Source: Candidatus Moranbacteria bacterium UBA2282 (lineage in GTDB: Bacteria; Patescibacteriota; Minisyncoccia; Moranbacterales; UBA2206). Taken from it: a stretch of DNA of 64,000 bases. The notes under the pieces are model-generated. The model did not search any database. It was given only the letters and a program-made list of their open reading frames with translations, and was not told the origin of the DNA. This document shows positions 28,059 to 44,156 of this stretch, piece after piece. Where the stretch lies: the NCBI GenBank assembly GCA_002345745.1, contig DDWQ01000011.1:21995-85994 (forward strand), given 5' to 3'. Numbering within the stretch: the stretch's first letter is position 1; each line of letters starts with the position of its first letter. The position numbers were made by a program, and so were the translations under genes.

Positions 28059-28619
28059 ATGTATAAATTCGGACCGGTGCAAAAGAAAATAATGATCACA
28101 CTTTTGGGTGGGGTTGCTTTGGGGATGTCCTCAAATCCGCGACAATATTTCAAGACTTTGCGGAAAGTGCGTAAAGATTGGAATAATGTCGATCAATATA
28201 GCTTCAAGCGTTCCGTTTTACGACTTTCAAAAGAAAAACTGATTGAGGAGAAAATTCTTCCGGACGGATCATTTAAATTGGTACTTACGAAAAAAGGCGG
28301 TGAGCAGGCAAAGAAATTAAACTTGCTAGGTAATTCCATTAAATTTAAATTTCCGAAAAAGTGGGACGGAAAATGGCGAATAGTTATTTTTGATATTCCG
28401 GAAAAAGATCGGGTGTTTCGAGATATTTTGCGTGGACATCTTCATAAGCTCAAATTTATTAAATTGCAAAACAGTGTCTTTGTTTCACCGCATCCTTTTG
28501 AAAGTCTTATTTTAGAATTAGTTGGATTGTATTCAGCTGAAAAATATGTACGGGTAATTACGGCATTAAAAATTGATAACGAAGATGACCTTAAAAAGAA
28601 ATTTTTTGATAAAATTTAA
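28059..28619 (+). CDS. putative transcriptional regulator: wHTH-like N-terminus plus Cas2-like / PaaX C-terminal-like domain
   Basis: C-terminal WRIVIFDIPEKDRVFRDILRGHLHKLKFIKLQNSVFVS matches the Cas2/PaaX_C beta-alpha-beta pattern (hhhhYDI...R..h...L...G.RhQ.SVF). The N-terminal ~90 aa is basic and helix-rich. Confidence 0.5.
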   Translation: MYKFGPVQKKIMITLLGGVALGMSSNPRQYFKTLRKVRKDWNNVDQYSFKRSVLRLSKEKLIEEKILPDGSFKLVLTKKGGEQAKKLNLLGNSIKFKFPKKWDGKWRIVIFDIPEKDRVFRDILRGHLHKLKFIKLQNSVFVSPHPFESLILELVGLYSAEKYVRVITALKIDNEDDLKKKFFDKI

Positions 28620-30063: not shown

Positions 30064-30417
30064 ATGGATAAATTTACTGCGAGAATAGTTGGGATTGTTG
30101 CAAAAGGCAAGCAAAAGGGTCGTGAGTTGGGATTTCCAACTGCCAATTTGGTATTATTGGATTCTGCTCTGAAAAGCGGGGTTTATGCCGGCAAAGCTAT
30201 CTTTGATGGTGGGGAATATGTGGCGGCGATTTTTGTGCCAGATTTAGGTAACTTGCTGGAAGCGCACATTTTGGATTTTCAAGGTGATTTGTATGGCAAA
30301 GAAATTGAAGTTGCGGTGGGCCGGAAAATTCGGGAAGCACTAAGGTTTAAAAGTGAAAAAGAATTAGTTAGTCAAATATCCAAAGATTTACTGCAGATTA
30401 GAAGTGCTAAAATATAA
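30064..30417 (+). CDS. riboflavin kinase (stand-alone kinase domain)
   Basis: GRELGFPTANL and GVYAGKA...GEYVAAI match the RibF C-terminal kinase domain. 117 aa with no FAD synthetase domain. Confidence 0.7.
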   Translation: MDKFTARIVGIVAKGKQKGRELGFPTANLVLLDSALKSGVYAGKAIFDGGEYVAAIFVPDLGNLLEAHILDFQGDLYGKEIEVAVGRKIREALRFKSEKELVSQISKDLLQIRSAKI

Positions 30418-30430
30418 TTTTAAGAAACTT

Positions 30431-31051
30431 ATGTATACAGGCATAGTACAAGGTATTTCCAAAGTTATCAAATTAAACAAAATAGGCGGGGTTTTGAATA
30501 TAACCATAGATTTTAGCGATGCACTTGCAAGTCATTTAGTTATGAGTGCTAGTGTAGCAATTGACGGCGTCTGTATGACTGTGTCAGGCATAGATGGCAA
30601 CCGCATCTCGTTTGATGCTATGAAAGAAACATTGGAAAACACGACACTTGGAAAGCTTGAGGTTGGCAGTGCTGTTAATATTGAGCGGTCAGCCAAGCAA
30701 GGGGATGAAATCGGAGGACATATATTATCCGGACACATTGAGGGAATGGCAGAGATCATTGATATTGATTCTAGTGATAATAATTTCGTTGTAACTTTTC
30801 GTTTTCCTGAAGCATGGAATGAATATATTTTTCATAAAGGATTTGTCGGCGTCAACGGCGCGAGCCTGACTGTGGTTAAACACGACAATAAAAAAAATGA
30901 ATTCTGTGTATATTTCATTCCGGAAACTTTGAAATTAACAACATTTGCAGAAAAAAAAGTTGGTGACTTTGTTAATATTGAAATTGACGGTCAAACAAAA
31001 ATAATTGTCGATACAGTGAAGAGTTATATGGAGCATCAAAATATAATCTAA
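30431..31051 (+). CDS. ribE: riboflavin synthase alpha subunit
   Basis: MYTGIVQGI N-terminus and duplicated lumazine-binding halves (IDGVCMTV / VNGASLTV). The start was moved to the ATG at 30431. Confidence 0.85.
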   Translation: MYTGIVQGISKVIKLNKIGGVLNITIDFSDALASHLVMSASVAIDGVCMTVSGIDGNRISFDAMKETLENTTLGKLEVGSAVNIERSAKQGDEIGGHILSGHIEGMAEIIDIDSSDNNFVVTFRFPEAWNEYIFHKGFVGVNGASLTVVKHDNKKNEFCVYFIPETLKLTTFAEKKVGDFVNIEIDGQTKIIVDTVKSYMEHQNII

Positions 31052-31067
31052 TTAACATGGAAAAAAT

Positions 31068-31484
31068 ATGCAAAAAAACATAGCAATTATCCTCGGCTCT
31101 TTTCATAAGAATCAGGTAGAAGAAATGCTGGATGAGGCGAAAAAAACTGCTGCCACAATTGGTTTGAATATAATTGAGGAAGTTTGGGTTCCGGGGTCAT
31201 ATGAAAAGCCATTAATACTGAAGGGTCTTTTATCGCGTGAAGATGTGGCTGGCGCAGTAGTTTTGAGCATCATCGAAAAAGGTGAAACAAAACATGGTCT
31301 AGTTATGGCACAGGTGGTTATGGGCAAAATTTTAGATTTGGAATTGGAATATATGAAACCAGTAGGTATTGGAATTTTGGGGCCAGAAATTTTGCCAGAG
31401 CAAATCTCTAATCGTCTGCGACCATACGCTCGCGACGCAATCAAAGCTACTAAAATAATGTTAGATATAATGGAATCTAAATAA
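31068..31484 (+). CDS. ribH: 6,7-dimethyl-8-ribityllumazine synthase
   Basis: Size and flavodoxin-like pattern (IAIILGSFHKNQ..., GAVVLSII). Sits in the riboflavin cluster. Confidence 0.65.
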   Translation: MQKNIAIILGSFHKNQVEEMLDEAKKTAATIGLNIIEEVWVPGSYEKPLILKGLLSREDVAGAVVLSIIEKGETKHGLVMAQVVMGKILDLELEYMKPVGIGILGPEILPEQISNRLRPYARDAIKATKIMLDIMESK

Positions 31485-31492
31485 AAAACACT

Positions 31493-33577
31493 ATGTTCAC
31501 AAAAAACTTCACGCAACTAAATAGAAATGATGCTGATATCGCCGGCGGTAAAGGCGCTTCCCTTGGTGAGATGATTCAATCTGGCATTCCAGTGCCAGAG
31601 GGCTTTGTCGTGCTGGCGGGAACTTTTGAAAAATTTTTGGAAGAAACTGATTTGAATGTTGAAGTTGATGCAATTCTGCATACTGTGGATCACAATGCGA
31701 TGCACACAGTTGAAGATGCTTCCGAAAAAATTCAAGCCTTGATCAAGGCCGCACAAATGCCAAGTGACATTGCGCAGGAGATTGAAAAAGAATTTGTGAA
31801 ATTGGACGCTGAATTTGTGGCGGTCAGGTCCAGTGCCACTGCCGAAGACGGCACCGAAAATGCTTGGGCTGGACAACTGGATTCATACTTGAACACTACG
31901 GAGGATAATCTATTGGAAAAAGTGCAACACTGTTGGGCATCTCTCTTCACCCCGCGAGCAATTTTCTATCGCTTTGAAAAAAATTTGCACAAGCAAAAAA
32001 TTTCCGTGGCGGTGGTGGTGCAAAAAATGGTCGCCAGCGAAATTTCTGGCATTGCTTTTTCTGTGCATCCTGTCACGGAGGATTATAATCAGCTTATTAT
32101 CGAAGCCGGTTTTGGCTTGGGCGAAGCGATTGTCTCCGGCTCGATCACACCAGATTCCTATGTGGTGGAAAAAGAATCACGCAACATTTTGGACATTAAC
32201 GTCTCCACACAAACTCGCGGACTCTATCGCGCGCAAAATGGCGGCAATGAGTGGCGAGACGTTCCCGAACCGCAAGCCTCATCGCAAGTGCTGACGCAAG
32301 AACAAATATTGGAACTGTCGGAAATAATCCTTGGCATCGAAAAACATTATGGTTTCCCGTGCGACATTGAATGGGCATATGAGAACAGTAAATTCTACAT
32401 CGTGCAAAGCCGACCAATTACAACACTGCAAAAGAAGCAGGAAACATCTGAAGAAAATATTGTTGAATTTGTTAATAAGAACAAATTTCACAAGCAATTT
32501 GTTTATTCCTTTTTGCCTACGGTTTCCAAAACGTTTTTGCCAATTTTTACATTTGAGGCAACTACAAACTGCTACTTAAATAATCCACTTGTGGGCAGAC
32601 TAAGATTGAAGAAATTGCCAAAGTTTGTCATCACACTGAAGGATGGTTATGAAGATTGGGAAGGCGGTGACATGCAAAAAATAACCAGGGATACAGATAT
32701 TAAATTTATTATCCAAGAGTGCCGAACGATCATGGAGAAGCATTCACAATTCACAGAAGAATTGTTGCAAAAAGATTATTCAAAAATTGATAACATTGAG
32801 CTTGCAGAAATATTAAGAAAATCAAATGAGGTTATGAAAGAAATTTGCCAGCGTCAAATATTTTTGATTCGCGATTTCATTGAAACAGAAAACTCAGCAT
32901 ACATCAAAATTTTGCCAGAACTTCGAGTTGAAATAACTAATTTTGTAGATAAATTTTACATTTCTTGCAATGATATTCTGACATCGCTAGCTGATAGGTT
33001 TGAGCAAATACCATGGCGAACTTTTATGTATGCGACTACGGGAGAAATAATAGAACTATTACAAGGCTCAAAAGCTACTGATGAATTTGCAAAAATATAC
33101 CAGCGTCACATTGCGTTTGTATTTGATGGAGAAAAAATTTCATTCATCACGGATTCATCGATAGTTTCAAAGGTTGATGAAATTTTGCACAAGAAAGAAT
33201 CAGGCAAGCAAGTGGAAATTACTTCAAATCAATTTTATGGCAACTCAGCTTTTGGCGGCCACGCCAAGGGGAATGTGGTCAAAATCACAGATGCTCAATA
33301 CAGAGATATTGCAAAATATTTGGAAGATAAAAAGGATTATATTCTAGTGATTTCTATGACTCGTCCAGAATTTATACCATACTTAAAAAACTGCAAAGCC
33401 ATCATCACCGACGAAGGTGGTATCACTTGTCACGCCGCCATCGTTTCCCGCGAACTCAAAATTCCTTGCATCATCAGCACCAAAATCGCCACGCAAGTTT
33501 TGCATGATGGAGATTTAGTGGAAGTGGATGCAGATAAGGGGATTGTGAGAATATTGAACAGAAAAAAGTTGACATGA
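31493..33577 (+). CDS. PEP-utilising enzyme family phosphotransferase (PPDK-N ATP-grasp nucleotide-binding domain + middle domain + phospho-His swivel domain)
   Basis: N-terminus DIAGGKGASLGEMIQSGIPVPEGFVV (PPDK_N / PEP synthase ATP domain). C-terminus GGITCHAAIVSRELKIPCII with the catalytic His. No TIM-barrel PEP/pyruvate domain, so the architecture resembles rifampin-phosphotransferase/YvkC-like enzymes. Confidence 0.8.
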   Translation: MFTKNFTQLNRNDADIAGGKGASLGEMIQSGIPVPEGFVVLAGTFEKFLEETDLNVEVDAILHTVDHNAMHTVEDASEKIQALIKAAQMPSDIAQEIEKEFVKLDAEFVAVRSSATAEDGTENAWAGQLDSYLNTTEDNLLEKVQHCWASLFTPRAIFYRFEKNLHKQKISVAVVVQKMVASEISGIAFSVHPVTEDYNQLIIEAGFGLGEAIVSGSITPDSYVVEKESRNILDINVSTQTRGLYRAQNGGNEWRDVPEPQASSQVLTQEQILELSEIILGIEKHYGFPCDIEWAYENSKFYIVQSRPITTLQKKQETSEENIVEFVNKNKFHKQFVYSFLPTVSKTFLPIFTFEATTNCYLNNPLVGRLRLKKLPKFVITLKDGYEDWEGGDMQKITRDTDIKFIIQECRTIMEKHSQFTEELLQKDYSKIDNIELAEILRKSNEVMKEICQRQIFLIRDFIETENSAYIKILPELRVEITNFVDKFYISCNDILTSLADRFEQIPWRTFMYATTGEIIELLQGSKATDEFAKIYQRHIAFVFDGEKISFITDSSIVSKVDEILHKKESGKQVEITSNQFYGNSAFGGHAKGNVVKITDAQYRDIAKYLEDKKDYILVISMTRPEFIPYLKNCKAIITDEGGITCHAAIVSRELKIPCIISTKIATQVLHDGDLVEVDADKGIVRILNRKKLT

Positions 33578-33645
33578 TGAATTAATCATCGTATTATGAA
33601 ATCAGATACTTATAAAATATTATAAACTTTTGTTTTAATAAAAAT

Positions 33646-34254
33646 ATGAAATATTTAGATTTTGCAGAGATATTTAAGGATTTTAACTCTTTTTCATTTC
33701 AGGATATTAAAAATGCCTTTGGTGATGTCAACCACTCACAATTGAGTGACTGGAAAAGGAAAGACCTTCTGCAATATGCAAAAAGAGGAGTTTTTGTTTT
33801 GCCAAATGCTAAAATTGACTTACATATTTTAGCTAACGAACTAAATTATTCGTATATATCCCTTGAATATGCATTGTCATATTATCAGATGATTCCAGAT
33901 GTAGCGCAAACCATTACTTCAATTTCAAAGGATAGAAATGAGAAGATTCACAATGAATTTGGCAGTTTCGTGTATCAAAAAATAGCTAAAGATCTTTTTT
34001 TGGACTACATTTTAGTTAAAAGTGAAAATGAGAAGAGATATTTTAGAATCGCGACTCCGGAAAAAGCCCTATTTGATTTGGTTTATTTACGGCAGGATTT
34101 GCAAACCAAAAACGACTTTGAATCTTTGCGTTTAACATTACCAAAGGATTTTAAAATATCTAAAATTAAAAAACTTTCCAGCTTAGTTAAGGCGAATAGA
34201 ATGAAAAGCAGGCTAAATAATTTAATTGATTATTTGTATGATTGCGTTAAATGA
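33646..34254 (+). CDS. AbiEi-like antitoxin (type IV TA, wHTH)
   Basis: Size, N-terminal wHTH-like segment and the position directly upstream of, and overlapping, the AbiEii-like gene. Confidence 0.55.
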   Translation: MKYLDFAEIFKDFNSFSFQDIKNAFGDVNHSQLSDWKRKDLLQYAKRGVFVLPNAKIDLHILANELNYSYISLEYALSYYQMIPDVAQTITSISKDRNEKIHNEFGSFVYQKIAKDLFLDYILVKSENEKRYFRIATPEKALFDLVYLRQDLQTKNDFESLRLTLPKDFKISKIKKLSSLVKANRMKSRLNNLIDYLYDCVK

Positions 34255-35011
34255 AATACTAAAATATTATTCAGCGACTGAAGTGAGGCATGTCAGGCAT
34301 ATTTTAAAGGAATATCTGCAATATCGAATTTTGAATATTGTTTTTTCTTCAAAATATGGAGATCGACTTATTTTTATGGGCGGTACTTGCATTAGAATTG
34401 TTCATGGCAATGATCGTTTTTCTGAGGATATTGATTTGGATAATTTTGATTTAACTGAAGAAAATTTTAGCGACCTTATGAATATTGTAAAGTTGGAGCT
34501 TGAGAAAGAGGGGATAAGCGTTGAGATCAGGAATACTTTCAAGGCAGTCTATCATTGCTATATTAAATTTCCTCAAATACTATTTGATAATAAGTTATCA
34601 CCATTAAAAGATGAGAAAATTTTAATTCAAATAGACAGTTTTAAACTAAAAAAGAAGCCGGGAACTGTATTGAAAATAATTAGTAAATTCGATGTTTTTG
34701 CAGAGATAAAAGTTTATCCGATGGAAATCGCTTTGGCACAGAAAATTCATGCCCTAGTAGAACGAAAGAGATTTAAGGGGCGGGATATTTATGATATCGT
34801 ATATTTGTATTCTTTAACGCAGCCGGATTGGAATTATCTGAAAAAATATTTAAATATTGGAAATCAAAAAGAGCTAAAAGAAAAATTGTTGAATTTATTT
34901 ACCAAAAAAGAATTACAAAGTTTGGCTAAGGATGTCGAACCTTTCTTGATTAACGCTAGAAAAGTAATTCAAATAGAAAAATTTAATGAGTGGGTTGAGT
35001 CTAGGTTATAA
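34226..35011 (+). CDS. AbiEii/AbiGii-family nucleotidyltransferase toxin
   Basis: MGGTCIRIVHGNDRFSEDIDLD matches the (K/M)GGTAL...R.SEDLD nucleotidyltransferase signature of DUF1814/AbiEii. Confidence 0.75.
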   Translation: MIICMIALNEILKYYSATEVRHVRHILKEYLQYRILNIVFSSKYGDRLIFMGGTCIRIVHGNDRFSEDIDLDNFDLTEENFSDLMNIVKLELEKEGISVEIRNTFKAVYHCYIKFPQILFDNKLSPLKDEKILIQIDSFKLKKKPGTVLKIISKFDVFAEIKVYPMEIALAQKIHALVERKRFKGRDIYDIVYLYSLTQPDWNYLKKYLNIGNQKELKEKLLNLFTKKELQSLAKDVEPFLINARKVIQIEKFNEWVESRL

Positions 35012-35127
35012 CTTAAAGCAAATATAAAACGATGCATCTATGACTACCAAAACCGTCATAAGTGTAATATAGGCAAAAAATACCTTATTTTAGTCGAAAT
35101 TTATCGACAGCATAAGTCCTTCAAATA

Positions 35128-35207
35128 AAATCGCCACCCAAGTTTTGCATGACGGGGATTTGGTGGAGGTGGATGCGGATAATGGGATTGTGAAAATTAT
35201 TAAATAA
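35128..35207 (+). pseudogene. 3' remnant of a PEP-utilising swivel-domain gene (last 26 codons only)
   Basis: Translates KIATQVLHDGDLVEVDADNGIVKIIK*. It is ~90% nt identical to the 3' ends of the neighbouring paralogs. No upstream ORF is connected. Confidence 0.7.
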
Positions 35208-35213
35208 ATTATT

Positions 35214-36689
35214 ATGGAAAATATTTTATTGGAAAAAATAAATCGTGAATGGCTACAAATTGCAGTTAGGCGTATGTCGTATCAAAAAATGCGTCTCTAT
35301 CATGACGGATTGATTCGAGGATTTAGAGATATTTTTGGTTATAATCAACATTTTTCTTTGGGCAGAATAAAAAATGGAGAGAATATTTATCATACAAATC
35401 GCCAAGAAGCAGAGGGTCAAGAAAAATTTATTCTAAATAAATTTATTGACACCAACTATATCAATTCAACCGTCAAAACACTTGGCAAAGAAATAGCATT
35501 GAATCTTGACAGCTATCTTGCATTTATCAAGTCCCTACCACAAGATTGGAGTGCCTATTCAAATAGTGAGCTAGTTGAAAATATACATCATCTGTATGAC
35601 AATGATCGCAAAGTTGAGGCATATTATTGGATTTTGTTTGATAATATAGAGAATGTTGCCGTGTTGGCAACTAGACAAGTAATGACTAGGAATGGCCATA
35701 ATGCAAAAGCGATAGAAAAAGCTTTTGCAGTCATTTCTCAACCGACTTTGATCATTCCGTTGGACATGGAAAGATTGTCTATATTGAAAGTGGCACTTTG
35801 TGAGAATGGCGCCAAACAAGAAACGCTGAAAAAGCACTGGGAAAAATTTGCTTATATGCCAATGTATGACATTAATTATGATTCACATGATTTGGAATAT
35901 TTCGAAAGAGAACTTGCCTTGATTGAAAAAGAAATTACCGTTGAGAATATTCAAGCTGAAATTGAAAATATAAACTTGAAATATTCTGATAGAAAAAAGC
36001 AGTGTTCTGATACTATCAAGCTTTTCAATAAAGATGCGGAAGTTGCCATCATGTTGGAATTTTTGAACGCTTTTGCCTCGCTCAAGGATCGCAAGCCCTA
36101 TGTTCGTGATCAAAGTAGCTATTTCACCAAAAATTTATTTGCTGAAGCTGCAAAGCGTCTGGACATTTCTTTATCCGAAGTTTTGTTTCTAACTAAAACA
36201 GAATTGGATGACGCATTGATTGGCAAACTTGAAATATCCAAATCAATGCTTGCGGAGAGAATCACAAGCAGCGCTTATTTATTTGAAGATGAGGATGTGT
36301 ATGTTTTCACAAAACCCGATGAATTAGCAATAATTGATAGTTATCTAGCGACGAAAAAAGATGCCTCAACTGAACTCAAAGGAGTGGTTGTGTCTAGCGG
36401 AAAAGCCGTGGGTACAGTGGCCATCATCATTAGTAATACTGATTTTGACAAATTCAAAGAAGGTCAAATACTCGTGACTAGCTCAACTCGACCTGATTTT
36501 GTACCGCTCATGAAAAAAGCAGTTGCTATCTTGACTGACGAAGGTGGAATTTTGAGTCACGCTGCTATCGTATCACGGGAATTGAAAGTGCCATGTATTG
36601 TTGGATTGAAAAATGCCACCCAAATTCTGGAAGATGGAGATTTGATTGAGATAGATGCAGCCAAGGGAATTGTAAAAATTATTAAATAA
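35214..36689 (+). CDS. PEP-utilising swivel-domain protein lacking the ATP-grasp domain (paralog 2)
   Basis: C-terminus GGILSHAAIVSRELKVPCIVGLKNATQILEDGDLIEIDAAKGIVKIIK. The N-terminal 400 aa are homologous to the middle domain of paralog 4. Confidence 0.7.
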   Translation: MENILLEKINREWLQIAVRRMSYQKMRLYHDGLIRGFRDIFGYNQHFSLGRIKNGENIYHTNRQEAEGQEKFILNKFIDTNYINSTVKTLGKEIALNLDSYLAFIKSLPQDWSAYSNSELVENIHHLYDNDRKVEAYYWILFDNIENVAVLATRQVMTRNGHNAKAIEKAFAVISQPTLIIPLDMERLSILKVALCENGAKQETLKKHWEKFAYMPMYDINYDSHDLEYFERELALIEKEITVENIQAEIENINLKYSDRKKQCSDTIKLFNKDAEVAIMLEFLNAFASLKDRKPYVRDQSSYFTKNLFAEAAKRLDISLSEVLFLTKTELDDALIGKLEISKSMLAERITSSAYLFEDEDVYVFTKPDELAIIDSYLATKKDASTELKGVVVSSGKAVGTVAIIISNTDFDKFKEGQILVTSSTRPDFVPLMKKAVAILTDEGGILSHAAIVSRELKVPCIVGLKNATQILEDGDLIEIDAAKGIVKIIK

Positions 36690-36693
36690 TCAT

Positions 36694-37719
36694 ATGGAAG
36701 TTAAATACGAAAAACATCAGCGTGATTATACAGTTTTGGCCTGTTCGGAAATTGCTGATGAATTTTTTGACCCAAGGATGAGTGGATTTTTTTCCTATGA
36801 TTCACATCCGGTTTTTATGTTGGTGGAAGATGGAATTTTTTATCATTTTGTAACTGAAAATGATTATTTAGGTTTGGCACTAGCCTATGCTAAAAAATAT
36901 CCCGAGGAACATTTGCAGAAATATGCACAAGAGTTTCAAGAAACATTAACGATTTATAGAAAATTTCTAATTCAAGCACATGTAAATGTGGCTGATGATA
37001 TTTTGAAGTTACATGAATACATGCGCATATTTTTACCGATAGTTATTATTTCAGCTTATCTTCCAATGTGTGGTGCAACCATCAATGAAAACACTATGGC
37101 ACTTTGCATGAAACTCAGACGAGAATATGAAGATGTACATAGAAATGGCATGACTTTAGAAAGGGAGTTATTAAATATCTTAGAGAAGGAATTATTCATC
37201 AAGCATGATTTTTTACGTTATTTGACCTCGAAAGAATTTAAGCATTTTCTAATTACCCATGAGTTGCCAAATGACATAGAAACAAGACAAAAATTTTTGT
37301 TGATGGAAGTTTATCGTGGAAAAGATACGGCATTTATTGGAAATGAAGCAATAGCTAAATTGAGAGAAATTGATGAACATAGAAATGTGTCTAATGTTCG
37401 GGAAATCAAAGGTAATGTGGCTTTTCGAGGCATAATAAAAGGCAGAGTGAAATTAATTAGATTAATAGAAGACGCCAATGATATTACGGAAGGTGATATA
37501 CTCGTGGCATCCATGACTGATCCGCGATACCTTCCTCTCATGAAAAAAGCTGGCGCTATTGTTACCGACGAAGGTGGCATCACCTGCCACGCAGCCATCG
37601 TCGCCCGTGAACTCAAAAAACCGTGTATAATAGGAACAAAGATCGCCACCCAAGTTTTGCACGATGGGGATTTAGTGGAGGTGGATGCGGATAAGGGGAT
37701 AGTAAAAATTATAAAATAA
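36694..37719 (+). CDS. PEP-utilising swivel-domain protein with short divergent N-terminal domain (paralog 3)
   Basis: C-terminus GGITCHAAIVARELKKPCIIGTKIATQVLHDGDLVEVDADKGIVKIIK. Confidence 0.7.
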   Translation: MEVKYEKHQRDYTVLACSEIADEFFDPRMSGFFSYDSHPVFMLVEDGIFYHFVTENDYLGLALAYAKKYPEEHLQKYAQEFQETLTIYRKFLIQAHVNVADDILKLHEYMRIFLPIVIISAYLPMCGATINENTMALCMKLRREYEDVHRNGMTLERELLNILEKELFIKHDFLRYLTSKEFKHFLITHELPNDIETRQKFLLMEVYRGKDTAFIGNEAIAKLREIDEHRNVSNVREIKGNVAFRGIIKGRVKLIRLIEDANDITEGDILVASMTDPRYLPLMKKAGAIVTDEGGITCHAAIVARELKKPCIIGTKIATQVLHDGDLVEVDADKGIVKIIK

Positions 37720-37724
37720 TTTGT

Positions 37725-39224
37725 ATGGGGGAAAAAACAGTTCTAGGTAATAATGCAATGATTTTGGATTATATTAATTCAAAAAATATATTTAAGCTTT
37801 ATAGTCGTAATATTTGTTTACAGATTAATGAAGTTTTTTTTAAATATTCGATGGCAGAGCTTAAAAAAAATAGAGGGATAACGTTTAGTTCATTATCTAT
37901 TAATAAAAACGGGTTTGTTGATTGTTATGGACAAACAGATGAAGCAGACGCTGTCAGTGAGAAAATCAAAAAAATTTATGAAAAATCAAAATCAATAAAA
38001 GATTTTTATGAAGATCATGCACTTCAATCATTCAATGAATATATTGAGTTTACCAAAAGAATGAATATGAAATATAGCGATAAATATAAAAAGATATCGG
38101 TCGATGAAATTAGAGGGGATTATGATAAATTTTCTAAAGTTAACGCAAAATTCATTAGCAATCTATGGTTTATTTATCTTTCAGATTCGCCGATTGATAA
38201 AATGCTAAAGGATGTGCTGTCAAAATATCTTGAAGGAATAAATAAAAAGCAGGATATGCAAGCATATCTTACTTTAATTTCAACTACTTTGAAAAAACCC
38301 GCAATAATTAGACAGCACAAAGAACTTTTGGAAATTGCATTAATAGAGGATGATGAAAAGCGCCAAATTGAGATCGAAAAACATTGTAAAAAATGGAATT
38401 GGTTTCCTTGCTACAATCCTTGTGATGATACATATGAATTAGCTCATTACACACATCAATTAAAGCAATACACTCCAGTAGTTGCCGAAAAAGAATTAGC
38501 TAAAATCAAGAAAGAAGAAAAAGAGCATGTAGATCAATATGACAATTTTTTAAAGTCAATAAAAGATGAAAAGTTGCATAAGCTTGTTAAAATGACAAAT
38601 GATATTTGTTTTTATCGCGAACATCGTAATGATTTACGTCGGGAGGGTCTTTGTTTGATTCGTCCTCTATATGAAAAGATAGGTATGATACTTGGATTAA
38701 ATGTAAAGGAGGTTTGTTATCTCACTAAAGATGAGATAGAAATATCACTTAAAAATGAAGAAATAAACATTTCTAAAGAAGATATTAATAATCGGATTTC
38801 AGAATACATTCTATTTACAAAAAATGAGAATTTCATATTAATTAGCAGTAGAGATACTATTAGTAGAATAAAAAAAATAATACAAAATAAGGATAGTGAG
38901 GATGATTTTCTCAAGGGCAGTTCAGCTGCTGGAGGTTTTGTAATAGGAAAAGTTTTTGTTATAAATAGCATAGACAAGTTAAAAAATTTCAAAGAAGGCG
39001 AAATATTAGTGACTTCTATGACGGCACCTGATTATGTAATGGCTATGAAAAAAGCGTCCGCAATCATCACCGATGAAGGTGGCATTACTTGTCATGCGGC
39101 CATCATTGCGCGTGAACTTAAGAAACCATGTATAATAGGAACAAAGATCGCCACGCAAGTTTTGCACGATGGGGATCTGGTTGAGGTGGATGCGGATCAG
39201 GGAATTGTTAGAATTTTGAAATAA
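37725..39224 (+). CDS. PEP-utilising swivel-domain protein lacking the ATP-grasp domain (paralog 4)
   Basis: C-terminus GGITCHAAIIARELKKPCIIGTKIATQVLHDGDLVEVDADQGIVRILK. The middle domain is similar to paralog 2 (HCKKWNWFPCYNPCDD vs HWEKFAYMPMYDINYD). Confidence 0.7.
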   Translation: MGEKTVLGNNAMILDYINSKNIFKLYSRNICLQINEVFFKYSMAELKKNRGITFSSLSINKNGFVDCYGQTDEADAVSEKIKKIYEKSKSIKDFYEDHALQSFNEYIEFTKRMNMKYSDKYKKISVDEIRGDYDKFSKVNAKFISNLWFIYLSDSPIDKMLKDVLSKYLEGINKKQDMQAYLTLISTTLKKPAIIRQHKELLEIALIEDDEKRQIEIEKHCKKWNWFPCYNPCDDTYELAHYTHQLKQYTPVVAEKELAKIKKEEKEHVDQYDNFLKSIKDEKLHKLVKMTNDICFYREHRNDLRREGLCLIRPLYEKIGMILGLNVKEVCYLTKDEIEISLKNEEINISKEDINNRISEYILFTKNENFILISSRDTISRIKKIIQNKDSEDDFLKGSSAAGGFVIGKVFVINSIDKLKNFKEGEILVTSMTAPDYVMAMKKASAIITDEGGITCHAAIIARELKKPCIIGTKIATQVLHDGDLVEVDADQGIVRILK

Positions 39225-39306: not shown

Positions 39307-39930
39307 TCATTCAACGATTGGTGCCAAGATAAACTCGGCATCGATAATGTTTCCATCCTGGATCGTGTAAACAACGCACGAGGCTTCTGGTGCCTCATAT
39401 GGCACAGACGCTGCCCATTTTTCTGGGACAGCTAGTGTATGAAAAGGCGAGTGGGAGAAGCAGATTGCTTGTTTTCTCCCGAGATCCTTTTCTCCAAGAT
39501 TCACGATCTCTTCAGCAAAGCTGAAGAGATAATTACTGAGATGTTGGCGAGCCAAGTGTGAGTAGTTGTTGATTTCGCGTGCCGCAGCCACTGTGTTTCC
39601 AGTCTCGACGACTTTTTGGAGATCTTTTTTGTAAGCTTCCATATCTCCATCAAAGGCCTCGGCGAAAGGAGCTTCAAAGCTAAGTCCGTTAATCTCTCTG
39701 TAAACAAAAAAATGATGACCTTTTATTGCGGTTTGTGCAATGTCGGCGCATTGCCGAGTTCTCACCGTGGGTGAGTGTGCGATATGCCCAAAATCAAATC
39801 CTCTTTTGAACAGAGCTTTGACTGCTGCTTTGATTTGGCGCTCACCCAAAGGAGTGAGACTGTCATCATTTTTGTTACCGTGCCGCATTACGGCGATTTC
39901 AACGTTTTTGGTAGTGATGTTATTTGGCAT
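39307..39930 (-). CDS. histidine phosphatase superfamily protein (phosphoglycerate mutase-like), GC-rich
   Basis: RHG motif (VMRHGNKND) and LTPLGERQ. The start was set to the internal Met (MPNNITT...) because the in-frame 5' extension lacks homology. Local GC ~47% versus ~35% background. Confidence 0.65.
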   Translation of the reverse strand: MPNNITTKNVEIAVMRHGNKNDDSLTPLGERQIKAAVKALFKRGFDFGHIAHSPTVRTRQCADIAQTAIKGHHFFVYREINGLSFEAPFAEAFDGDMEAYKKDLQKVVETGNTVAAAREINNYSHLARQHLSNYLFSFAEEIVNLGEKDLGRKQAICFSHSPFHTLAVPEKWAASVPYEAPEASCVVYTIQDGNIIDAEFILAPIVE

Positions 39931-40115
39931 GATGTGCTCCTTTTGAGATGGTTGATGGTTTTCCGTAAAAAATACGGATAAATTGACAAAGAAATCAGGC
40001 ACCATACCTGATTATCAATTATAGCAGATGAAATGATTTCTGTCAAATTATAGAGCTTTGATCTTTTCGGAAAAAATGCTATAATACACGTACTTTAAGA
40101 TTAAGATATAATATT

Positions 40116-41693: not shown

Positions 41694-42959
41694 ATGAATA
41701 AAATAAAAAATAATAAAATAATAAAATTTAACGTACTATTTTTATTGCTAGCAATTATTGCCTTGGCACTTTTTAATTTTGCATCATACGCCAATGTCCG
41801 TGCCGAAAGTTGCGACACACTAATAGGTGATGACAAAGATAAATGCATCATCGCACTGGAAAAAAAGGCCGAAGCCTACCAAGATATTATTGATATAAAA
41901 GTTAAACAGCAAACCGCCTTACAAAAACAAATGACTTTGATTGATGCCGAACAATCTAAAAATCAATCCGCCTTGCAAGAAGTACATGAAAAATTTCAAA
42001 CTACGCTAGATCAAATTAATAATTTAAAAAGAAGAATTGAGCACGAAGAAACACAAATTGAGCAACAAAAAATAATCCTATCAGGATTGATGCAGTCATA
42101 TTATGAAGATGATCAGCAAGGTGTTTTGGATATTGTTTTGGCTAATAGAGATTTTTCAGAAATTCTGAATCAGTCTGACTACATTCAACAATCAAGTTTT
42201 AAAGTTTCTGACGTGTTAAAATCAATTCAAGATATAAAAAATGATTTAGACCGTCAAAAAATTGCTCTGGAAGAAACAAAAACAGAACATGAAAATTTAC
42301 AAAATCAATTAGAGGATAAAAATTTGAACTTGCAAAACACTGAGGCTCAGAAGCAAAAATTATTTGGACAAACAAAAGCTGATGCAGAAAAATATCAAAA
42401 TCTTCTAGATAATATTGAAAATGAAATTTATAGCTTGGAATCAAGTAAGTCTGTTGATTACAGTAATGTGCCAGCAGCAAAGGGTGGTTATTTTGATTAT
42501 CCAGTTTCAAGTGAAGTTATTACTCAATCATATGGCTGTTTGAAAGATTCTTTTGCGAAAAGATCATATCCTACTTGCGATAATGGCAGTGGAGGATTTC
42601 ATAATGGATTGGATTTTGGTAAAAATAGTGGGAACAGTATTTTCTCCGTTAAAAGCGGTAGGGTAATCGCATCTGGAGATAATGGTAAATATGCTTATGG
42701 TAGGTGGCTTGCAATTGATCATGCAGATGGATTGGTAACTCTCTATGGGCATCTAAGTAGTAAGCTTGTTGCAAAAGGTGCTAAAGTTGAAGCAGGGCAA
42801 AAAATTGGAATAATAGGAACAACTGGATATTCTACAGGAATTCATCTTCATTTTTCAGTTTTTGATAAAAATAGCTTCGAGATTGTTGAATCCTTAAAAG
42901 TAAATGGGTTGATGCTACCCGCTGGAGCATCAATTAGTCCAAAAAGATATTTAAAGTAA
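41694..42959 (+). CDS. M23 family peptidase with N-terminal signal/TM and long coiled-coil (EnvC-like)
   Basis: C-terminal LytM/M23 motifs HNGLDFG...HLHFSVF. Q/E/K-rich coiled-coil in the first 250 aa. Confidence 0.8.
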   Translation: MNKIKNNKIIKFNVLFLLLAIIALALFNFASYANVRAESCDTLIGDDKDKCIIALEKKAEAYQDIIDIKVKQQTALQKQMTLIDAEQSKNQSALQEVHEKFQTTLDQINNLKRRIEHEETQIEQQKIILSGLMQSYYEDDQQGVLDIVLANRDFSEILNQSDYIQQSSFKVSDVLKSIQDIKNDLDRQKIALEETKTEHENLQNQLEDKNLNLQNTEAQKQKLFGQTKADAEKYQNLLDNIENEIYSLESSKSVDYSNVPAAKGGYFDYPVSSEVITQSYGCLKDSFAKRSYPTCDNGSGGFHNGLDFGKNSGNSIFSVKSGRVIASGDNGKYAYGRWLAIDHADGLVTLYGHLSSKLVAKGAKVEAGQKIGIIGTTGYSTGIHLHFSVFDKNSFEIVESLKVNGLMLPAGASISPKRYLK

Positions 42960-42990
42960 ATCTTCTCTTTTTGTCGGTTAAATTTATATT

Positions 42991-43016
42991 TTCAGCATAC
43001 ATTGATGTATGCTGAA
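42991..43016. terminator. bidirectional hairpin between convergent M23 genes
   Basis: TTCAGCATACAT-TGA-TGTATGCTGAA perfect 12-bp stem, flanked by A/T runs. Confidence 0.5.
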
Positions 43017-43116
43017 ATTATTTAATTTTGTGGTAAGCTAATTGCTTTTCTGTATTAGGTGTCGCAAAAGATACCTTGTGCGACACTGTCCATATTTCAA
43101 GATACGATCTTCCCTG

Positions 43117-43689
43117 CTAAATTTGCGTATTTTTAGGATTATAATTTTTTATAAAACTAACTGGCTCTTTCCAATATTCTAACTCCGTCGTATTCTCTTT
43201 GTCAGATTGCTCTTTAAAATAACCTGGCAAAACTCGCGCGTGGAACGGTCCATCATAAATTCCAAAATGCAAATGTTCTTCCTCCCACGCTCCATTGGAT
43301 TCACTTAGTGATTTTCCAATGATTCCAATCAAGCCACCCATTTCAATGGTATCGCCTTTTTTAACATAGCGCTTACCTAGATGACCATAGACGGAGTAGA
43401 AAACTTTTTTTGTCTTTGGATCTTTGTGTGCAATGATGGTGATGCCACCCCAATTTCTTTTAATAATAGTTTCTCCATCTTCGGAAAATTCCCCCGGATG
43501 TAGTTTTGAATAAACAACAGTTCCGCGTCCAATGGAAAAAACTTTCGTCTCCGCAGGTGCTGAGATATCAATGCCCAGATGCTTGCCCCACAGTTGTTTA
43601 TCATAGACATTCATCTCACCAAAACCAGAAGAAATATTTTTAAAATTCCCCACAGGAAACATTAGATTAGGTGTGATTCGATAAGCCAT
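43117..43689 (-). CDS. M23 family peptidase
   Basis: HLGIDISAP...EEHLHFGIYDG matches the M23 HxxxD / HxH zinc ligand pattern. Confidence 0.75.
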   Translation of the reverse strand: MAYRITPNLMFPVGNFKNISSGFGEMNVYDKQLWGKHLGIDISAPAETKVFSIGRGTVVYSKLHPGEFSEDGETIIKRNWGGITIIAHKDPKTKKVFYSVYGHLGKRYVKKGDTIEMGGLIGIIGKSLSESNGAWEEEHLHFGIYDGPFHARVLPGYFKEQSDKENTTELEYWKEPVSFIKNYNPKNTQI

Positions 43690-43763
43690 TGGTAGTTTGC
43701 GAATTTAGAACAATTTTTAGCTAATGATTGTTAATAAATTATTCGCAATAAATTCGCCTTAAA

Positions 43764-44156
43764 TTAGTTTTTAATTAGAGAATTTCTATAATCTTTTATA
43801 GCTTCATGCAACGCCTCGTCTGCCAGATTTGAACAATGCATTTTAATTGGCGGCAAACCATCTAGTGCATCTGCTACATCGTTGCGCGTAATTTTCATCG
43901 CATCTTCGACTGTTTTGCCTTTGGCAAGATCAGTTACCATTGAAGATGTTGCAATAGCCGAGGCACAACCAAGTGTTTCAAATTTAATATCACTAATGAT
44001 ATCCCCTTTTTTCTTGTCTTTTTTTACTTTAATGTAAATTTTCATTAAATCACCACAAACTGGATTTCCGACCATACCAACGCCAGAGGCATTTTTAAGC
44101 GCTCCTTGATTATGCGGTCGAGTGAAATGTTCTAAAACTTTTTTTGAATATTGCAT
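43764..44156 (-). CDS. iscU: Fe-S cluster assembly scaffold IscU/NifU
   Basis: GNPVCGDLMKIY, LGCASAIA and HCSNLADEAL hold the three conserved Cys. Confidence 0.85.
   Translation of the reverse strand: MQYSKKVLEHFTRPHNQGALKNASGVGMVGNPVCGDLMKIYIKVKKDKKKGDIISDIKFETLGCASAIATSSMVTDLAKGKTVEDAMKITRNDVADALDGLPPIKMHCSNLADEALHEAIKDYRNSLIKN

What the first reader, a model, noticed from the sequence alone, without database searches (positions are those of the whole stretch)
31493..39224. Tandem array of PEP-utilising (phospho-His swivel) paralogs with near-identical 3' ends and modular, partly ATP-grasp-less N-termini
Four intact genes plus one 3' remnant lie head-to-tail (31493-33577, fragment 35128-35207, 35214-36689, 36694-37719, 37725-39224). 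All end in the same ~60-aa swivel domain (GGIT/LCHAAIV.RELK.PCI...DGDLVEVDA..GIV.I.K). That domain is conserved at the nucleotide level (~85-90% over the last ~150 nt), while the upstream two-thirds of each gene is divergent. Only the first gene carries the PPDK-N/ATP-grasp nucleotide-binding domain. Paralogs 2 and 4 keep a homologous middle (substrate-binding-like) domain plus the swivel. Paralog 3 has a short unrelated N-terminus. In rifampin phosphotransferase and PEP synthase, the ATP-grasp domain charges the swivel His, which then phosphorylates a substrate bound by the middle domain. The layout here (one full enzyme followed by several substrate-domain+swivel proteins) suggests two possibilities. 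One is a trans-acting, multi-substrate small-molecule phosphotransferase (possibly antibiotic or xenobiotic inactivation) system. The other is a locus diversifying by gene conversion at the conserved 3' end. I am not aware of a described system with this split architecture.
Basis: partly seen in the sequence, partly recalled or inferred. Interest (0 to 1): 0.8.

Follow-up and report, generated by a model that had tools for sequence, protein, structure and literature searches.

The report
One-to-many split dikinase gene array
This stretch of an ultra-small (CPR/Patescibacteria-type) bacterial genome encodes one ATP-binding "charger" domain and four different phospho-histidine carrier modules plus a phosphatase, a layout repeated, with up to 13 modules and sometimes fused into one giant protein, in many ultra-small bacteria and archaea; it looks like a multi-substrate version of known two-part kinases, but what it phosphorylates is unknown.

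Summary
P1 (31493-33577), P2, P3 and P4 lie head-to-tail and all end in a PF00391 swivel domain with the catalytic His. Only P1 has the PPDK_N ATP-grasp. An 81-nt swivel tail (35127-35207) is a remnant. It missed the AbiEi/AbiEii cassette that sits where a lost module was, and a His_Phos_1 phosphatase gene downstream.

The gene-conversion reading fails. Synonymous sites between paralog swivels are near saturation (pS 0.63-0.71). Swivel tails do not cluster by genome.

The trans-acting multi-acceptor dikinase reading is supported by comparative evidence:
- 47 of 82 related loci carry at least 3 co-directional modules, and none has more than one ATP-grasp.
- The ATP-grasp is often a stand-alone gene about 315 aa long.
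- In some archaeal-titled loci the whole array is one ORF (ATP-grasp plus 10 modules, 4768 aa).
- Modules within an array are almost never similar to each other.
- A histidine-phosphatase-fold gene lies beside 23 of 44 arrays.

Split RPH-like dikinases (PpsAB, CreHI, HpeHI) are already described, so the split itself is not new. The one-to-many array, the fusions and the phosphatase partner appear undescribed. Substrates remain unknown.

The parts
31493..33577 (+). P1, 694 aa. ATP-grasp/PPDK_N (residues 15-322, nt 31535-32458), then a short-class acceptor module N-domain (about residues 323-583), then the swivel domain (residues 614-683, nt 33332-33541; catalytic His647 at nt 33431-33433).
   Evidence: Pfam PF01326 329 bits and PF00391 81 bits. 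There is no PF02896 PEP/pyruvate-binding domain. The ATP-grasp is 59-61% identical to stand-alone ATP-grasp proteins in L003 and L006, and 83% to L087_608. The middle domain matches stand-alone proteins of about 365 aa (N-domain plus swivel, e.g. P0129 at 44%) and ATP-grasp-fused proteins of about 690 aa. P1 is therefore an ATP-grasp fused to one module.
33646..34254 (+). AbiEi antitoxin gene (202 aa), part of an inserted toxin-antitoxin cassette. It is not part of the dikinase system.
   Evidence: PADLOC AbiEi E 1e-44. NCBIfam TAA_AbiEi E 2e-10. A promoter-like site matching 11 of 12 positions lies at 33569-33597.
34226..35011 (+). AbiEii nucleotidyltransferase toxin gene (261 aa from a TTG start; JGI aa).
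   Evidence: Pfam PF08843 E 3e-22. PADLOC AbiEii E 4e-79.
35127..35207 (+). 3' remnant of a lost module: the last 26 codons of a swivel domain plus the stop. It has no start codon and no upstream ORF.
   Evidence: Sequence read directly. It is 91% nt identical to the P3 tail and 84% to the P1 and P4 tails, and similarity ends at 35127. Its stop lies 6 nt before the P2 start.
35214..36689 (+). P2, 491 aa. Long-class acceptor module: N-domain about residues 1-385, then the swivel (residues 414-485, nt 36453-36668; His449 at nt 36558-36560).
   Evidence: Pfam finds PF00391 only. The N-domain is homologous to that of P4. The motif K291-D292-x-K294 aligns with the family [RK]-[ED]-x-[RK] motif.
36694..37719 (+). 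P3, 341 aa. Short-class acceptor module: N-domain about residues 1-235, then the swivel (residues 265-335, nt 37486-37698; His299 at nt 37588-37590).
37725..39224 (+). P4, 499 aa. Long-class acceptor module: N-domain about residues 1-392, then the swivel (residues 422-493, nt 38988-39203; His457 at nt 39093-39095).
39307..40005 (-). Histidine-phosphatase-superfamily (His_Phos_1, 'PhoE-like') protein, 232 aa. Motifs: R41-H42-G43, S78-P-x-x-R82, S184-H185. It is a probable third component of the system.
   Evidence: Pfam PF00300 24.6 bits, above the gathering cutoff of 21.7. JGI names it 'broad specificity phosphatase PhoE'. Motifs located. An 82% ortholog sits at the end of the array in L089. 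Family members lie within 1.5 kb of 23 of 44 arrays.
40018..40046 (-). Promoter-like site (TTGACA, 17 nt spacer, TATAAT, with TG) just upstream of the phosphatase gene.
   Evidence: It matches 12 of 12 consensus positions. Consensus match only, and the region as a whole is not enriched for such sites.

Best explanation
The locus encodes a modular, RPH/PpsAB-type ATP-dependent dikinase system built on a one-to-many plan.

Proposed mechanism (inferred):
- The single ATP-grasp domain (the N-terminus of P1) binds ATP and loads a phosphoryl group onto the catalytic histidine of a swivel domain. By analogy with RPH and PpsAB, ATP would give AMP + Pi + His~P.
- It does this for its own tethered module in cis and, by transient docking, for the swivel domains of P2, P3 and P4 in trans.
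- Each charged swivel then swings back onto its own N-terminal helical domain. That domain carries the conserved basic-acidic motif equivalent to RPH R666-E667 and binds a different acceptor, and the phosphoryl group passes to that acceptor.
- The array is therefore a set of non-redundant specificity modules sharing one energy-coupling domain.
- The adjacent histidine-phosphatase-fold protein is a conserved partner. It either dephosphorylates the products or resets phospho-His modules.
- A fifth module was destroyed when an AbiE toxin-antitoxin cassette landed in the array.

Shown here: domain content, catalytic motifs, fold, purifying selection, conservation of the array in other genomes, stand-alone ATP-grasps, and fusions.

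Inferred, not shown: phosphotransfer in trans, dikinase stoichiometry, the small-molecule nature of the acceptors, and the role of the phosphatase. The acceptors are unknown.
For: Domain content:
- Only P1 has PPDK_N, and all four genes have PF00391 with the TDEGGxxxHAA histidine.

Fold:

Catalytic motif:
- The P4-family profile aligns to RPH 607-866 with 'YRE' on RPH R666-E667, the catalytic pair in RPH.
- The motif [RK]-[ED]-x-[RK] holds in most of the 31 family members (28 of 31 carry R/K then E/D), including P2.
- An invariant Arg aligns in the P3 family and in the family of P1's module.

Comparative evidence from 82 other loci:
- 61 have at least 2 swivel domains, 47 have at least 3, 29 have at least 5, and the maximum is 13. 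All but one of the genes in them are co-directional.
- 21 loci have a stand-alone ATP-grasp of about 304-331 aa, and no locus has more than one ATP-grasp.
- Fusions occur: L060 is one ORF of 4768 aa (ATP-grasp plus 10 modules), L085 is 3625 aa with 8 modules, and L075 has 5 modules plus a C-terminal ATP-grasp.
- P1's own module type exists both fused to an ATP-grasp and as a stand-alone protein of about 365 aa.

Modules are maintained and distinct:
- P3 versus its ortholog gives dN/dS 0.09 in the N-domain and the swivel alike.
- 310 modules fall into 230 clusters at 35% identity or more. Only 2 modules share a cluster with another module of the same locus.

Precedent:
- HpeHI, CreHI and PpsAB are split RPH homologs that need both components and do not form a stable complex (PMC12167813).

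Phosphatase partner:
- His_Phos_1-like ORFs lie within 1.5 kb of 23 of 44 arrays. The window's copy has an 82% ortholog at the end of the array in a relative.
Against: - There is no biochemical evidence and no complex model.
- In this window the ATP-grasp is tethered to its own module, so it might serve that module only.
- Only 64 kb of the genome was seen, so another ATP-grasp elsewhere cannot be excluded.
- 26 of 47 large arrays show no ATP-grasp within the 20-kb locus held. Many of those loci are cut by contig ends.
- K670 of RPH has no aligned lysine. A basic residue sits one position away.
- The N-domains match the RIF-binding domain over only 60-120 residues beyond the swivel.
- Nothing points to a particular acceptor, and acceptors might be macromolecules rather than small molecules.
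Confidence: 0.6

Rival explanations
1. Concerted evolution or gene conversion. The array is a diversifying locus in which the conserved 3' swivel-coding ends are kept alike by ongoing gene conversion between paralogs, while the 5' parts diverge.
For: There is a small excess of identical codons at identical residues for P3-P4 (30 of 46 against 20.1 expected, P 0.0015) and for remnant-P3 (18 of 24 against 10.8 expected, P 0.0016). Module content differs between close relatives while the swivel ends persist. The AbiE cassette is bracketed by two swivel tails in direct orientation. The tails could therefore serve as recombination sites for occasional cassette exchange.
Against: The other eight pairs show no excess (P 0.013-0.31). 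Synonymous differences between paralog swivels are near saturation (pS 0.63-0.71), against 0.44 for the P3 ortholog pair. Swivel tails cluster by ortholog, not by genome: P3 to its ortholog is 0.89, within-window pairs are 0.65-0.76, and non-orthologous pairs between genomes are 0.58-0.80, reaching 0.72-0.80 among the P1/P3/P4-type swivels. The same amino-acid tail (GTKIATxVLxDGDLVEVDAxKGIVKI) recurs in unrelated genomes, so protein constraint plus AT-biased codon usage explains the identity. N-domain types have orthologs at 40-48% identity in distant genomes, so the paralogs are old.
Confidence: 0.05
2. ATP-grasp-independent modules. P2-P4 do not receive phosphate from P1. They would act as stand-alone phosphotransferases that shuttle a phosphoryl group between small molecules, or they would be charged by a different donor encoded elsewhere.
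For: HpeH alone catalyses phosphotransfer from phospho-product to substrate (PMC12167813). Many arrays have no ATP-grasp in the locus held. The phosphatase partner could set the direction of such exchanges.
Against: In-frame fusion of one ATP-grasp with 2-10 modules and the recurrent single ATP-grasp gene at array ends argue for a shared charger. No PEP-binding domain (PF02896) or PTS component was seen in the loci examined. Loci lacking an ATP-grasp are mostly truncated by contig ends.
Confidence: 0.15
3. Face-value annotation. P1 is a gluconeogenic PEP synthase or PPDK, and P2-P4 are decaying duplicates or non-catalytic regulators.
For: JGI names P1 and P4 'phosphoenolpyruvate synthase/pyruvate phosphate dikinase'. 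The best NCBIfam hits for P1 are PEP synthase models. Metabolic reconstructions of CPR and DPANN genomes use such annotations (PMC7143001, PMC11606122).
Against: P1 scores 403-423 bits against cutoffs of 598-740 and matches only the ATP-grasp and swivel parts. No PEP/pyruvate-binding C-terminal domain is present. P2-P4 keep the catalytic His and core motifs and P3 is under strong purifying selection. Module families are conserved across hundreds of genomes.
Confidence: 0.03
4. Role hypothesis A. The modules are a battery of antibiotic or xenobiotic-inactivating kinases, an RPH-like 'proto-resistome' that protects an episymbiont from host or community metabolites.
For: The closest structural relative is RPH. 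The module repertoire turns over quickly between close relatives. Arrays carry inserted defence or mobile genes such as AbiE, AAA_14/DUF4143, IS200 and a PF10706 aminoglycoside-nucleotidyltransferase-like gene. N-domain diversity is very high.
Against: There are no PADLOC hits for the modules. RPH's RIF-binding residues were not tested and the RPH model scores far below its cutoff. Module types are conserved at 40-48% identity across distant lineages and shared by bacterial and archaeal loci, which fits stable cellular substrates just as well. The recurrent phosphatase partner is not a feature of resistance kinases.
Confidence: 0.15
5. Role hypothesis B. The system phosphorylates scavenged metabolites or cofactor precursors, a salvage hub for organisms that lack many conventional kinases.
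For: It is widespread and syntenically stable in CPR- and DPANN-titled genomes with minimal metabolism. It can occupy up to about 20 kb; set against genomes of the order of 1 Mb (one record, L078, is an 896-kb chromosome) that is a large share. Flavin-cofactor genes (flavokinase, riboflavin synthase, lumazine synthase, RibL-like) lie beside arrays in the window and about 11 other loci. One CPR genome paper reports missing glucokinase and phosphofructokinase (PMC7143001).
Against: This is purely circumstantial. The flavin linkage could be inherited synteny. Repertoire differences between close relatives are unexpected for core metabolism.
Confidence: 0.2

Closest known systems
Two-component small-molecule dikinases: HpeHI (Rhodococcus), CreHI (Corynebacterium), PpsAB phenylphosphate synthase (Thauera/Aromatoleum), AcvAB (Sphingobium)
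   Same: The ATP-grasp lies on one polypeptide, and the substrate-binding domain plus His swivel lie on another. Both are homologous to RPH. The catalytic His sits in a T/S-x-x-G-G-x-x-x-H motif. Phosphotransfer occurs in trans without a stable complex (PMC12167813). Related loci here (L003, L006 and others) have exactly this split.
   Different: The known systems are 1:1 pairs acting on phenolic compounds in catabolic operons of Proteobacteria and Actinobacteria. Their substrate subunit is about 600-650 aa. Here one ATP-grasp accompanies 3 to 13 different modules of 340-500 aa. In the window the ATP-grasp is fused to one module. A His_Phos_1 phosphatase is a recurrent partner. The hosts are CPR- and DPANN-titled genomes. 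NCBIfam PRK08296 models (about 600-aa proteins annotated only as 'hypothetical protein') match only the swivel part of P2-P4.
Rifampin phosphotransferase (RPH, PDB 5HV1/5FBS)
   Different: RPH is a single polypeptide with a 430-aa RIF-binding domain. Here the acceptor domains are 235-390 aa and only 60-120 of their residues superpose. The NF041857 score is 323 bits against a cutoff of 999. K670 is not conserved in register.
PEP synthase / pyruvate phosphate dikinase
   Same: The ATP-grasp (PF01326) and swivel (PF00391) are homologous. The best PDB sequence hits of P1 are PEP synthases (8a8e, E 7e-90).
   Different: There is no C-terminal PEP/pyruvate-binding domain (PF02896), and scores fall below the equivalog cutoffs.
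Phosphotransferase system (EI to HPr to several EII)
   Different: The PTS is driven by PEP, passes through separate carrier proteins and is coupled to transport. Here the donor would be ATP through an ATP-grasp, and each carrier is fused to its own acceptor domain.
Prodiginine-condensing enzymes PigC/RedH/HapC
   Same: They have the same three-domain RPH-like plan, and NCBIfam models hit P1-P4.
   Different: Scores are far below the cutoffs (71-302 bits against 1300-1350). They are single polypeptides of about 880 aa within pigment gene clusters.

Membership tests
PEP synthase (pyruvate, water dikinase; TIGR01418 / NF005057) | C-terminal PEP/pyruvate-binding TIM-barrel domain (PF02896) | tested here: not met
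   Pfam finds only PF01326 and PF00391 in P1, and PF00391 as the only significant family in P2-P4.
PEP synthase (pyruvate, water dikinase; TIGR01418 / NF005057) | Whole-protein score above the curated equivalog cutoff | tested here: not met
   P1 scores 422.8 bits against a cutoff of 598, and 402.7 against 739.75. P2-P4 score 114-134 bits.
Rifampin phosphotransferase (NF041857 / NF000283) | Whole-protein score above the curated cutoff (a proxy for the RIF-binding domain) | tested here: not met
   P1 scores 322.7 bits against a cutoff of 999, and 227 against 1700.
RPH-like small-molecule dikinase superfamily (Stogios et al. 2016) | Swivel domain with the phospho-carrying His | tested here: met
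   TDEGG[IL]xxHAA is present in all four proteins, with H647, H449, H299 and H457. PF00391 hits have E 4e-23 or better.
RPH-like small-molecule dikinase superfamily (Stogios et al. 2016) | Catalytic Arg-Glu and Lys ('block 9') in the acceptor-binding domain | tested here: inconclusive
   The Arg-Glu pair aligns: P4 R298-E299 on RPH R666-E667. P2 has K291-D292. P3 has the invariant R142 and P1 has R478. No residue aligns with K670; a basic residue lies one position away.
RPH-like small-molecule dikinase superfamily (Stogios et al. 2016) | Acceptor-binding domain with the RIF-BD-like fold docking the swivel | tested here: met
Two-component dikinase (HpeHI/CreHI/PpsAB type) | ATP-grasp on a polypeptide separate from the acceptor-binding plus swivel subunit | tested here: met
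   P2-P4 lack any ATP-grasp. In the window the ATP-grasp is fused to one module (P1). In 21 related loci it is a stand-alone gene of about 304-331 aa.
Two-component dikinase (HpeHI/CreHI/PpsAB type) | Both components are required for ATP-dependent phosphorylation, with AMP + Pi as products | not testable with these tools
   This needs enzyme assays.
Two-component dikinase (HpeHI/CreHI/PpsAB type) | 1:1 pairing of components within a catabolic operon for a phenolic substrate | tested here: not met
   One ATP-grasp accompanies 4 modules (formerly 5) here and up to 13 elsewhere. No carboxylase or aromatic-catabolic genes lie nearby.
Histidine phosphatase superfamily branch 1 (PF00300), for the gene at 39307-40005 | RHG catalytic motif, a second Arg in S-P-x-x-R, a distal His, and a Pfam score above the gathering cutoff | tested here: met
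   R41-H42-G43, R82 and H185 are present. The score is 24.6 bits against a cutoff of 21.7, although only profile positions 16-68 are matched.
AbiE type IV toxin-antitoxin system, for 33646-35011 | An adjacent AbiEi antitoxin and AbiEii nucleotidyltransferase toxin | tested here: met
   PADLOC gives AbiEi E 1e-44 and AbiEii E 4e-79. Pfam gives PF08843.

The most novel reading that the evidence does not exclude
CPR bacteria and DPANN archaea share an ATP-driven, PTS-like one-to-many phosphorelay. A single ATP-grasp 'charger' serves a changeable set of up to a dozen or more phospho-histidine modules, each with its own acceptor pocket. Dedicated histidine-phosphatase-fold proteins act as erasers or resetters. 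This hub would stand in for conventional kinases that these reduced genomes lack, or would process host-derived molecules. That would make it a central and so far unrecognised part of the physiology of ultra-small symbionts.
Probability: 0.25. Interest if true: 0.85.

Novelty: new variant of a known kind. Interest (0 to 1): 0.68.

Why it matters
- Annotation. Genes of this kind are routinely labelled 'PEP synthase/PPDK' and taken at face value in metabolic reconstructions of CPR and DPANN genomes. P1-type genes lack the PEP-binding domain, so inferences of gluconeogenesis drawn from them are unsafe.
- Scale. The arrays can reach about 20 kb, a large investment if these genomes are of the order of 1 Mb (one record, L078, is an 896-kb chromosome), and they are widespread: 7271 homologs scored in one capped search, and 47 of 82 loci with at least 3 modules. 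They probably reflect an important, unstudied activity of ultra-small symbionts.
- Enzymology. One ATP-grasp serving many swivel modules, with natural fused and split versions of the same module type, is a ready-made test of how swivel domains find their partners. It also offers a possible toolbox of orthogonal kinases.
- Substrates. The acceptor repertoire could reveal which molecules these organisms take from hosts or defend against.

Tried and rejected
- Gene conversion. Tested three ways: codon identity against the codon-usage expectation, identity matrices within and between genomes, and Nei-Gojobori pS/pN. Rejected, apart from a weak signal for P3, P4 and the remnant.
- Anti-phage defence system. 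PADLOC hits only the AbiE cassette.
- Finding the state of the locus before the AbiE insertion. The close relatives L087 and L089/L090 have different modules, or an unrelated 426-aa gene, at that position, so no clean empty site was found.
- Identifying the phosphatase more closely. The best PDB sequence hits (PGAM5, E 0.14) are not significant and the SixA model is far below its cutoff.
- AFDB fold search. The library was unavailable.
- RNA elements. Only two distant tRNAs were found and there is no riboswitch near the array.
- Literature. Seven searches found no description of these arrays. The 'giant genes' preprint mentions PPDK_N only in a domain list.
- Promoter and terminator scan. The region is not enriched over shuffles. 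Only two near-perfect sites are worth noting.

Full report
**1. What is in the window**

ORF listing confirms four co-directional genes at the coordinates given: P1 31493-33577 (694 aa), P2 35214-36689 (491 aa), P3 36694-37719 (341 aa) and P4 37725-39224 (499 aa).

- Pfam finds PPDK_N (PF01326, residues 15-322, 329 bits) only in P1.
- Pfam finds the PEP-utilizers mobile ('swivel') domain PF00391 at the C-terminus of all four. NCBIfam agrees, and none of the proteins reaches any equivalog cutoff.
- All four keep the phospho-carrying histidine in TDEGG[IL]xxHAA: H647, H449, H299 and H457.
- 35127-35207 encodes KIATQVLHDGDLVEVDADNGIVKIIK followed by a stop. It has no start codon and similarity ends abruptly upstream. 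Its stop is 6 nt before the P2 start, which resembles the 4-5 nt gaps between P2, P3 and P4. It is the tail of a lost module.

- The space between P1 and the remnant holds an AbiEi/AbiEii toxin-antitoxin pair (33646-35011; PADLOC E 1e-44 and 4e-79). It has its own near-consensus promoter-like site.
- 82 nt downstream of P4, on the other strand, lies a 232-aa histidine-phosphatase-superfamily gene (39307-40005). Its PF00300 score is above the gathering cutoff, it carries R41-H42-G43, R82 and H185, and JGI names it PhoE-like.

The window is identical to a 118-kb JGI metagenome contig. Its relatives carry Patescibacteria/CPR record titles.

**2. The 3' ends and gene conversion**

Nucleotide identity over the last 150 nt is 0.69-0.85. 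Only P3-P4 reaches 0.85, and the remnant versus P3 is 0.91 over 75 nt.

Three tests were applied.

- *Codon identity.* Using codon usage from 38 other ORFs of the window, the number of identical codons at identical residues exceeds expectation only for P3-P4 (30 of 46 against 20.1, P 0.0015) and remnant-P3 (18 of 24 against 10.8, P 0.0016). The other pairs are not significant after correction.
- *Synonymous divergence.* Nei-Gojobori estimates give pS 0.63-0.71 between paralog swivels, near saturation. P3 and its ortholog in a related genome give pS 0.44.
- *Clustering of tails.* In a joint identity matrix with the relative L087, P3's swivel is closest to its ortholog (0.89). Within-window paralog pairs are 0.65-0.76. 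Non-orthologous pairs between genomes reach 0.72-0.80 among the P1/P3/P4-type swivels (0.58-0.80 overall). Tails therefore do not cluster by genome.

The same amino-acid tail occurs in arrays of unrelated genomes. Protein constraint and AT-rich codon usage explain the similarity.

**3. What the ATP-grasp-less proteins are**

- The N-domains of P2 and P4 are homologous.
- A 31-sequence alignment gave an AF2 model of P4 with pLDDT 92.7. It has a small N-terminal sheet, a helical domain, a beta-hairpin linker and the swivel.
- The family profile aligns to RPH 607-866. It places the family's 'Y-R-E' on R666-E667, which Stogios et al. identify as catalytic together with K670. Across the family the motif is [RK]-[ED]-x-[RK], and P2 has K291-D292-x-K294.
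- P1's middle region (323-583) belongs to a family that also exists as stand-alone proteins of about 365 aa (N-domain plus swivel). That family also occurs fused to an ATP-grasp at about 690 aa. It aligns nearly end to end with the P3 family.

All four genes thus carry the same kind of module, in a long or a short form, and P1 is an ATP-grasp fused to one module.

**4. The array elsewhere**

A capped protein search scored 7271 homologs. The named ones come mostly from Patescibacteria and from DPANN archaea. Loci around homologs, together with 79 loci from GTDB species representatives, were scanned with HMMs built here.

Among 82 non-window loci of at most 22 kb:

| Feature | Loci |
|---|---|
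| at least 2 swivel domains | 61 |
| at least 3 swivel domains | 47 |
| at least 5 swivel domains | 29 |
| stand-alone ATP-grasp (about 304-331 aa) | 21 |
| ATP-grasp fused to a module | 5 |

- The maximum is 13 swivel domains in one locus, and all but one of the genes are co-directional.
- The stand-alone ATP-grasps in L003 and L006 are 59-61% identical to P1's.
- No locus has more than one ATP-grasp.
- In archaeal-titled loci the array can be a single ORF. L060 is 4768 aa (ATP-grasp plus 10 modules), L085 is 3625 aa with 8 modules, and L075 has 5 modules plus a C-terminal ATP-grasp. These in-frame fusions link the ATP-grasp functionally to many modules.

The modules are old and distinct.

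- P4-type N-domains are 48% identical in L003 and L006, and the P3 type is 41% identical in L006. Paralogs within a genome are 25% identical or less.
- 310 modules fall into 230 clusters at 35% identity or more. Only 2 modules share a cluster with another module of the same locus.

The repertoires nevertheless turn over. In the close relatives L087 and L089/L090, P3 is 88% identical. P1's ATP-grasp is 83% identical in L087, and the phosphatase is 82% identical in L089. P2, P4 and P1's module have no orthologs there. P3 is under strong purifying selection (dN/dS 0.09).

**5. A third component**

Iterative HMM searches starting from recurrent non-swivel neighbours found histidine-phosphatase-like ORFs within 1.5 kb of 23 of 44 arrays with at least 3 genes. 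They carry an RH[GSED] motif, S-P-x-x-R-A-x-x-T, and a distal [ST]H. They often abut a module gene, and some arrays have two or three. Single-sequence Pfam support is weak except for the window's copy. The association is therefore firm, but the family assignment of the divergent members rests on motifs.

**6. Mechanism**

The best-supported reading is a one-to-many version of the two-component RPH-like dikinases. The ATP-grasp charges the swivel His of its own module and of the other modules. Each swivel then delivers the phosphoryl group to an acceptor held by its own N-domain.

HpeHI, CreHI and PpsAB show that this works in trans without a stable complex (PMC12167813). Trans-charging, the AMP + Pi stoichiometry, the nature of the acceptors and the phosphatase's role are inferences. 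Rival readings are given separately in the report: modules that work without the ATP-grasp, true PEP synthase, an antibiotic-inactivating battery, and a salvage hub.

**7. Novelty**

The following were not found in seven full-text searches:
- the tandem arrays of non-redundant modules with a single ATP-grasp;
- the giant fused forms;
- the phosphatase partner;
- the restriction, by record titles, largely to CPR and DPANN.

I rate the finding a new variant of a known kind. It is of solid interest, both because of its spread in microbial dark matter and because these genes are currently read as PEP synthase.

**Limits**
- Only 64 kb of this genome and loci of at most 22 kb elsewhere were seen.
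- Record titles of several MAGs look unreliable.
- No complex modelling or biochemistry was possible.

Noticed in passing
window 33646-35011 (with 33569-33597 and 35127-35207): An AbiEi/AbiEii toxin-antitoxin cassette with its own near-consensus promoter-like site sits inside the array. It is bracketed by two swivel tails in direct orientation (the P1 tail and the remnant, 84% identical over 75 nt). It apparently replaced the body of a fifth module.
   Followed up: partly
window 39307-40005 (-), promoter-like site 40046-40018; also L006 3690-4505 and 12876-13700, L089 11292-11927, L087 11540-12676: A histidine-phosphatase-fold gene (RHG motif) lies next to the array here and next to 23 of 44 arrays elsewhere. 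Some arrays have two or three such genes. The window copy is preceded by a perfect TTGACA-17-TATAAT match.
   Followed up: partly
L060 7106-21412; L085 269-11146; L075 2037-9161; L033 829-4422; L081 8462-11884: Whole arrays are fused into single ORFs. They reach 4768 aa (one ATP-grasp plus ten N-domain/swivel modules) in loci titled Nanoarchaeota, Woesearchaeota or 'archaeon'. Smaller fusions of one ATP-grasp plus two modules occur in loci titled Saccharibacteria (L033) and Gammaproteobacteria (L081).
   Followed up: partly
window 30064-31484; L087 13528-14936; L014, L025, L049, L051, L065, L069; RibL-like ORFs in L035, L038, L076, L078: Flavin-cofactor genes lie directly beside arrays in the window and about 11 other loci, in differing arrangements. 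They include flavokinase, riboflavin synthase, lumazine synthase and a RibL-like cytidylyltransferase. This could be a functional link or inherited synteny.
   Followed up: partly
L007 16746-17309; L089 7193-8446; L088 8460-9950: Other arrays also carry inserted accessory genes. These are an IS200-type Y1 transposase, an AAA_14/DUF4143 ATPase, and a PF10706 nucleotidyltransferase with a HAD hydrolase and a GIY-YIG gene. The arrays seem to be insertion-tolerant, variable regions.
   Followed up: no
L087 608-11498 and L089/L090 compared with window 31493-39224: In close relatives P3 is 88% identical, the ATP-grasp 83% (L087) and the phosphatase 82% (L089). They carry different modules at the positions of P2, P4 and P1's module. 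Module repertoires therefore turn over much faster than sequences diverge.
   Followed up: partly
L086 3128-3904; L027, L061, L080; L004 10723-11460: TrmB-family transcription regulator genes recur beside arrays in several loci.
   Followed up: no
window about 42000-44000: Cumulative GC skew peaks here and then falls, coinciding with a switch in gene strand. This may be a replication-related inflection.
   Followed up: no
L013, L014, L025, L036, L044, L056 and others; L015, L024, L027, L037, L039; L051: GTDB records titled 'uncultured Gammaproteobacteria', 'Methanosarcinales' or 'Bdellovibrionales' carry typical arrays. The titles of these third-party MAGs are probably unreliable.
   Followed up: no
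window 28059-28619: A 186-aa PaaX_M-domain protein is encoded 2.9 kb upstream of the array. PaaX is the family of the phenylacetate-catabolism repressor. No link to the array was examined.
   Followed up: no
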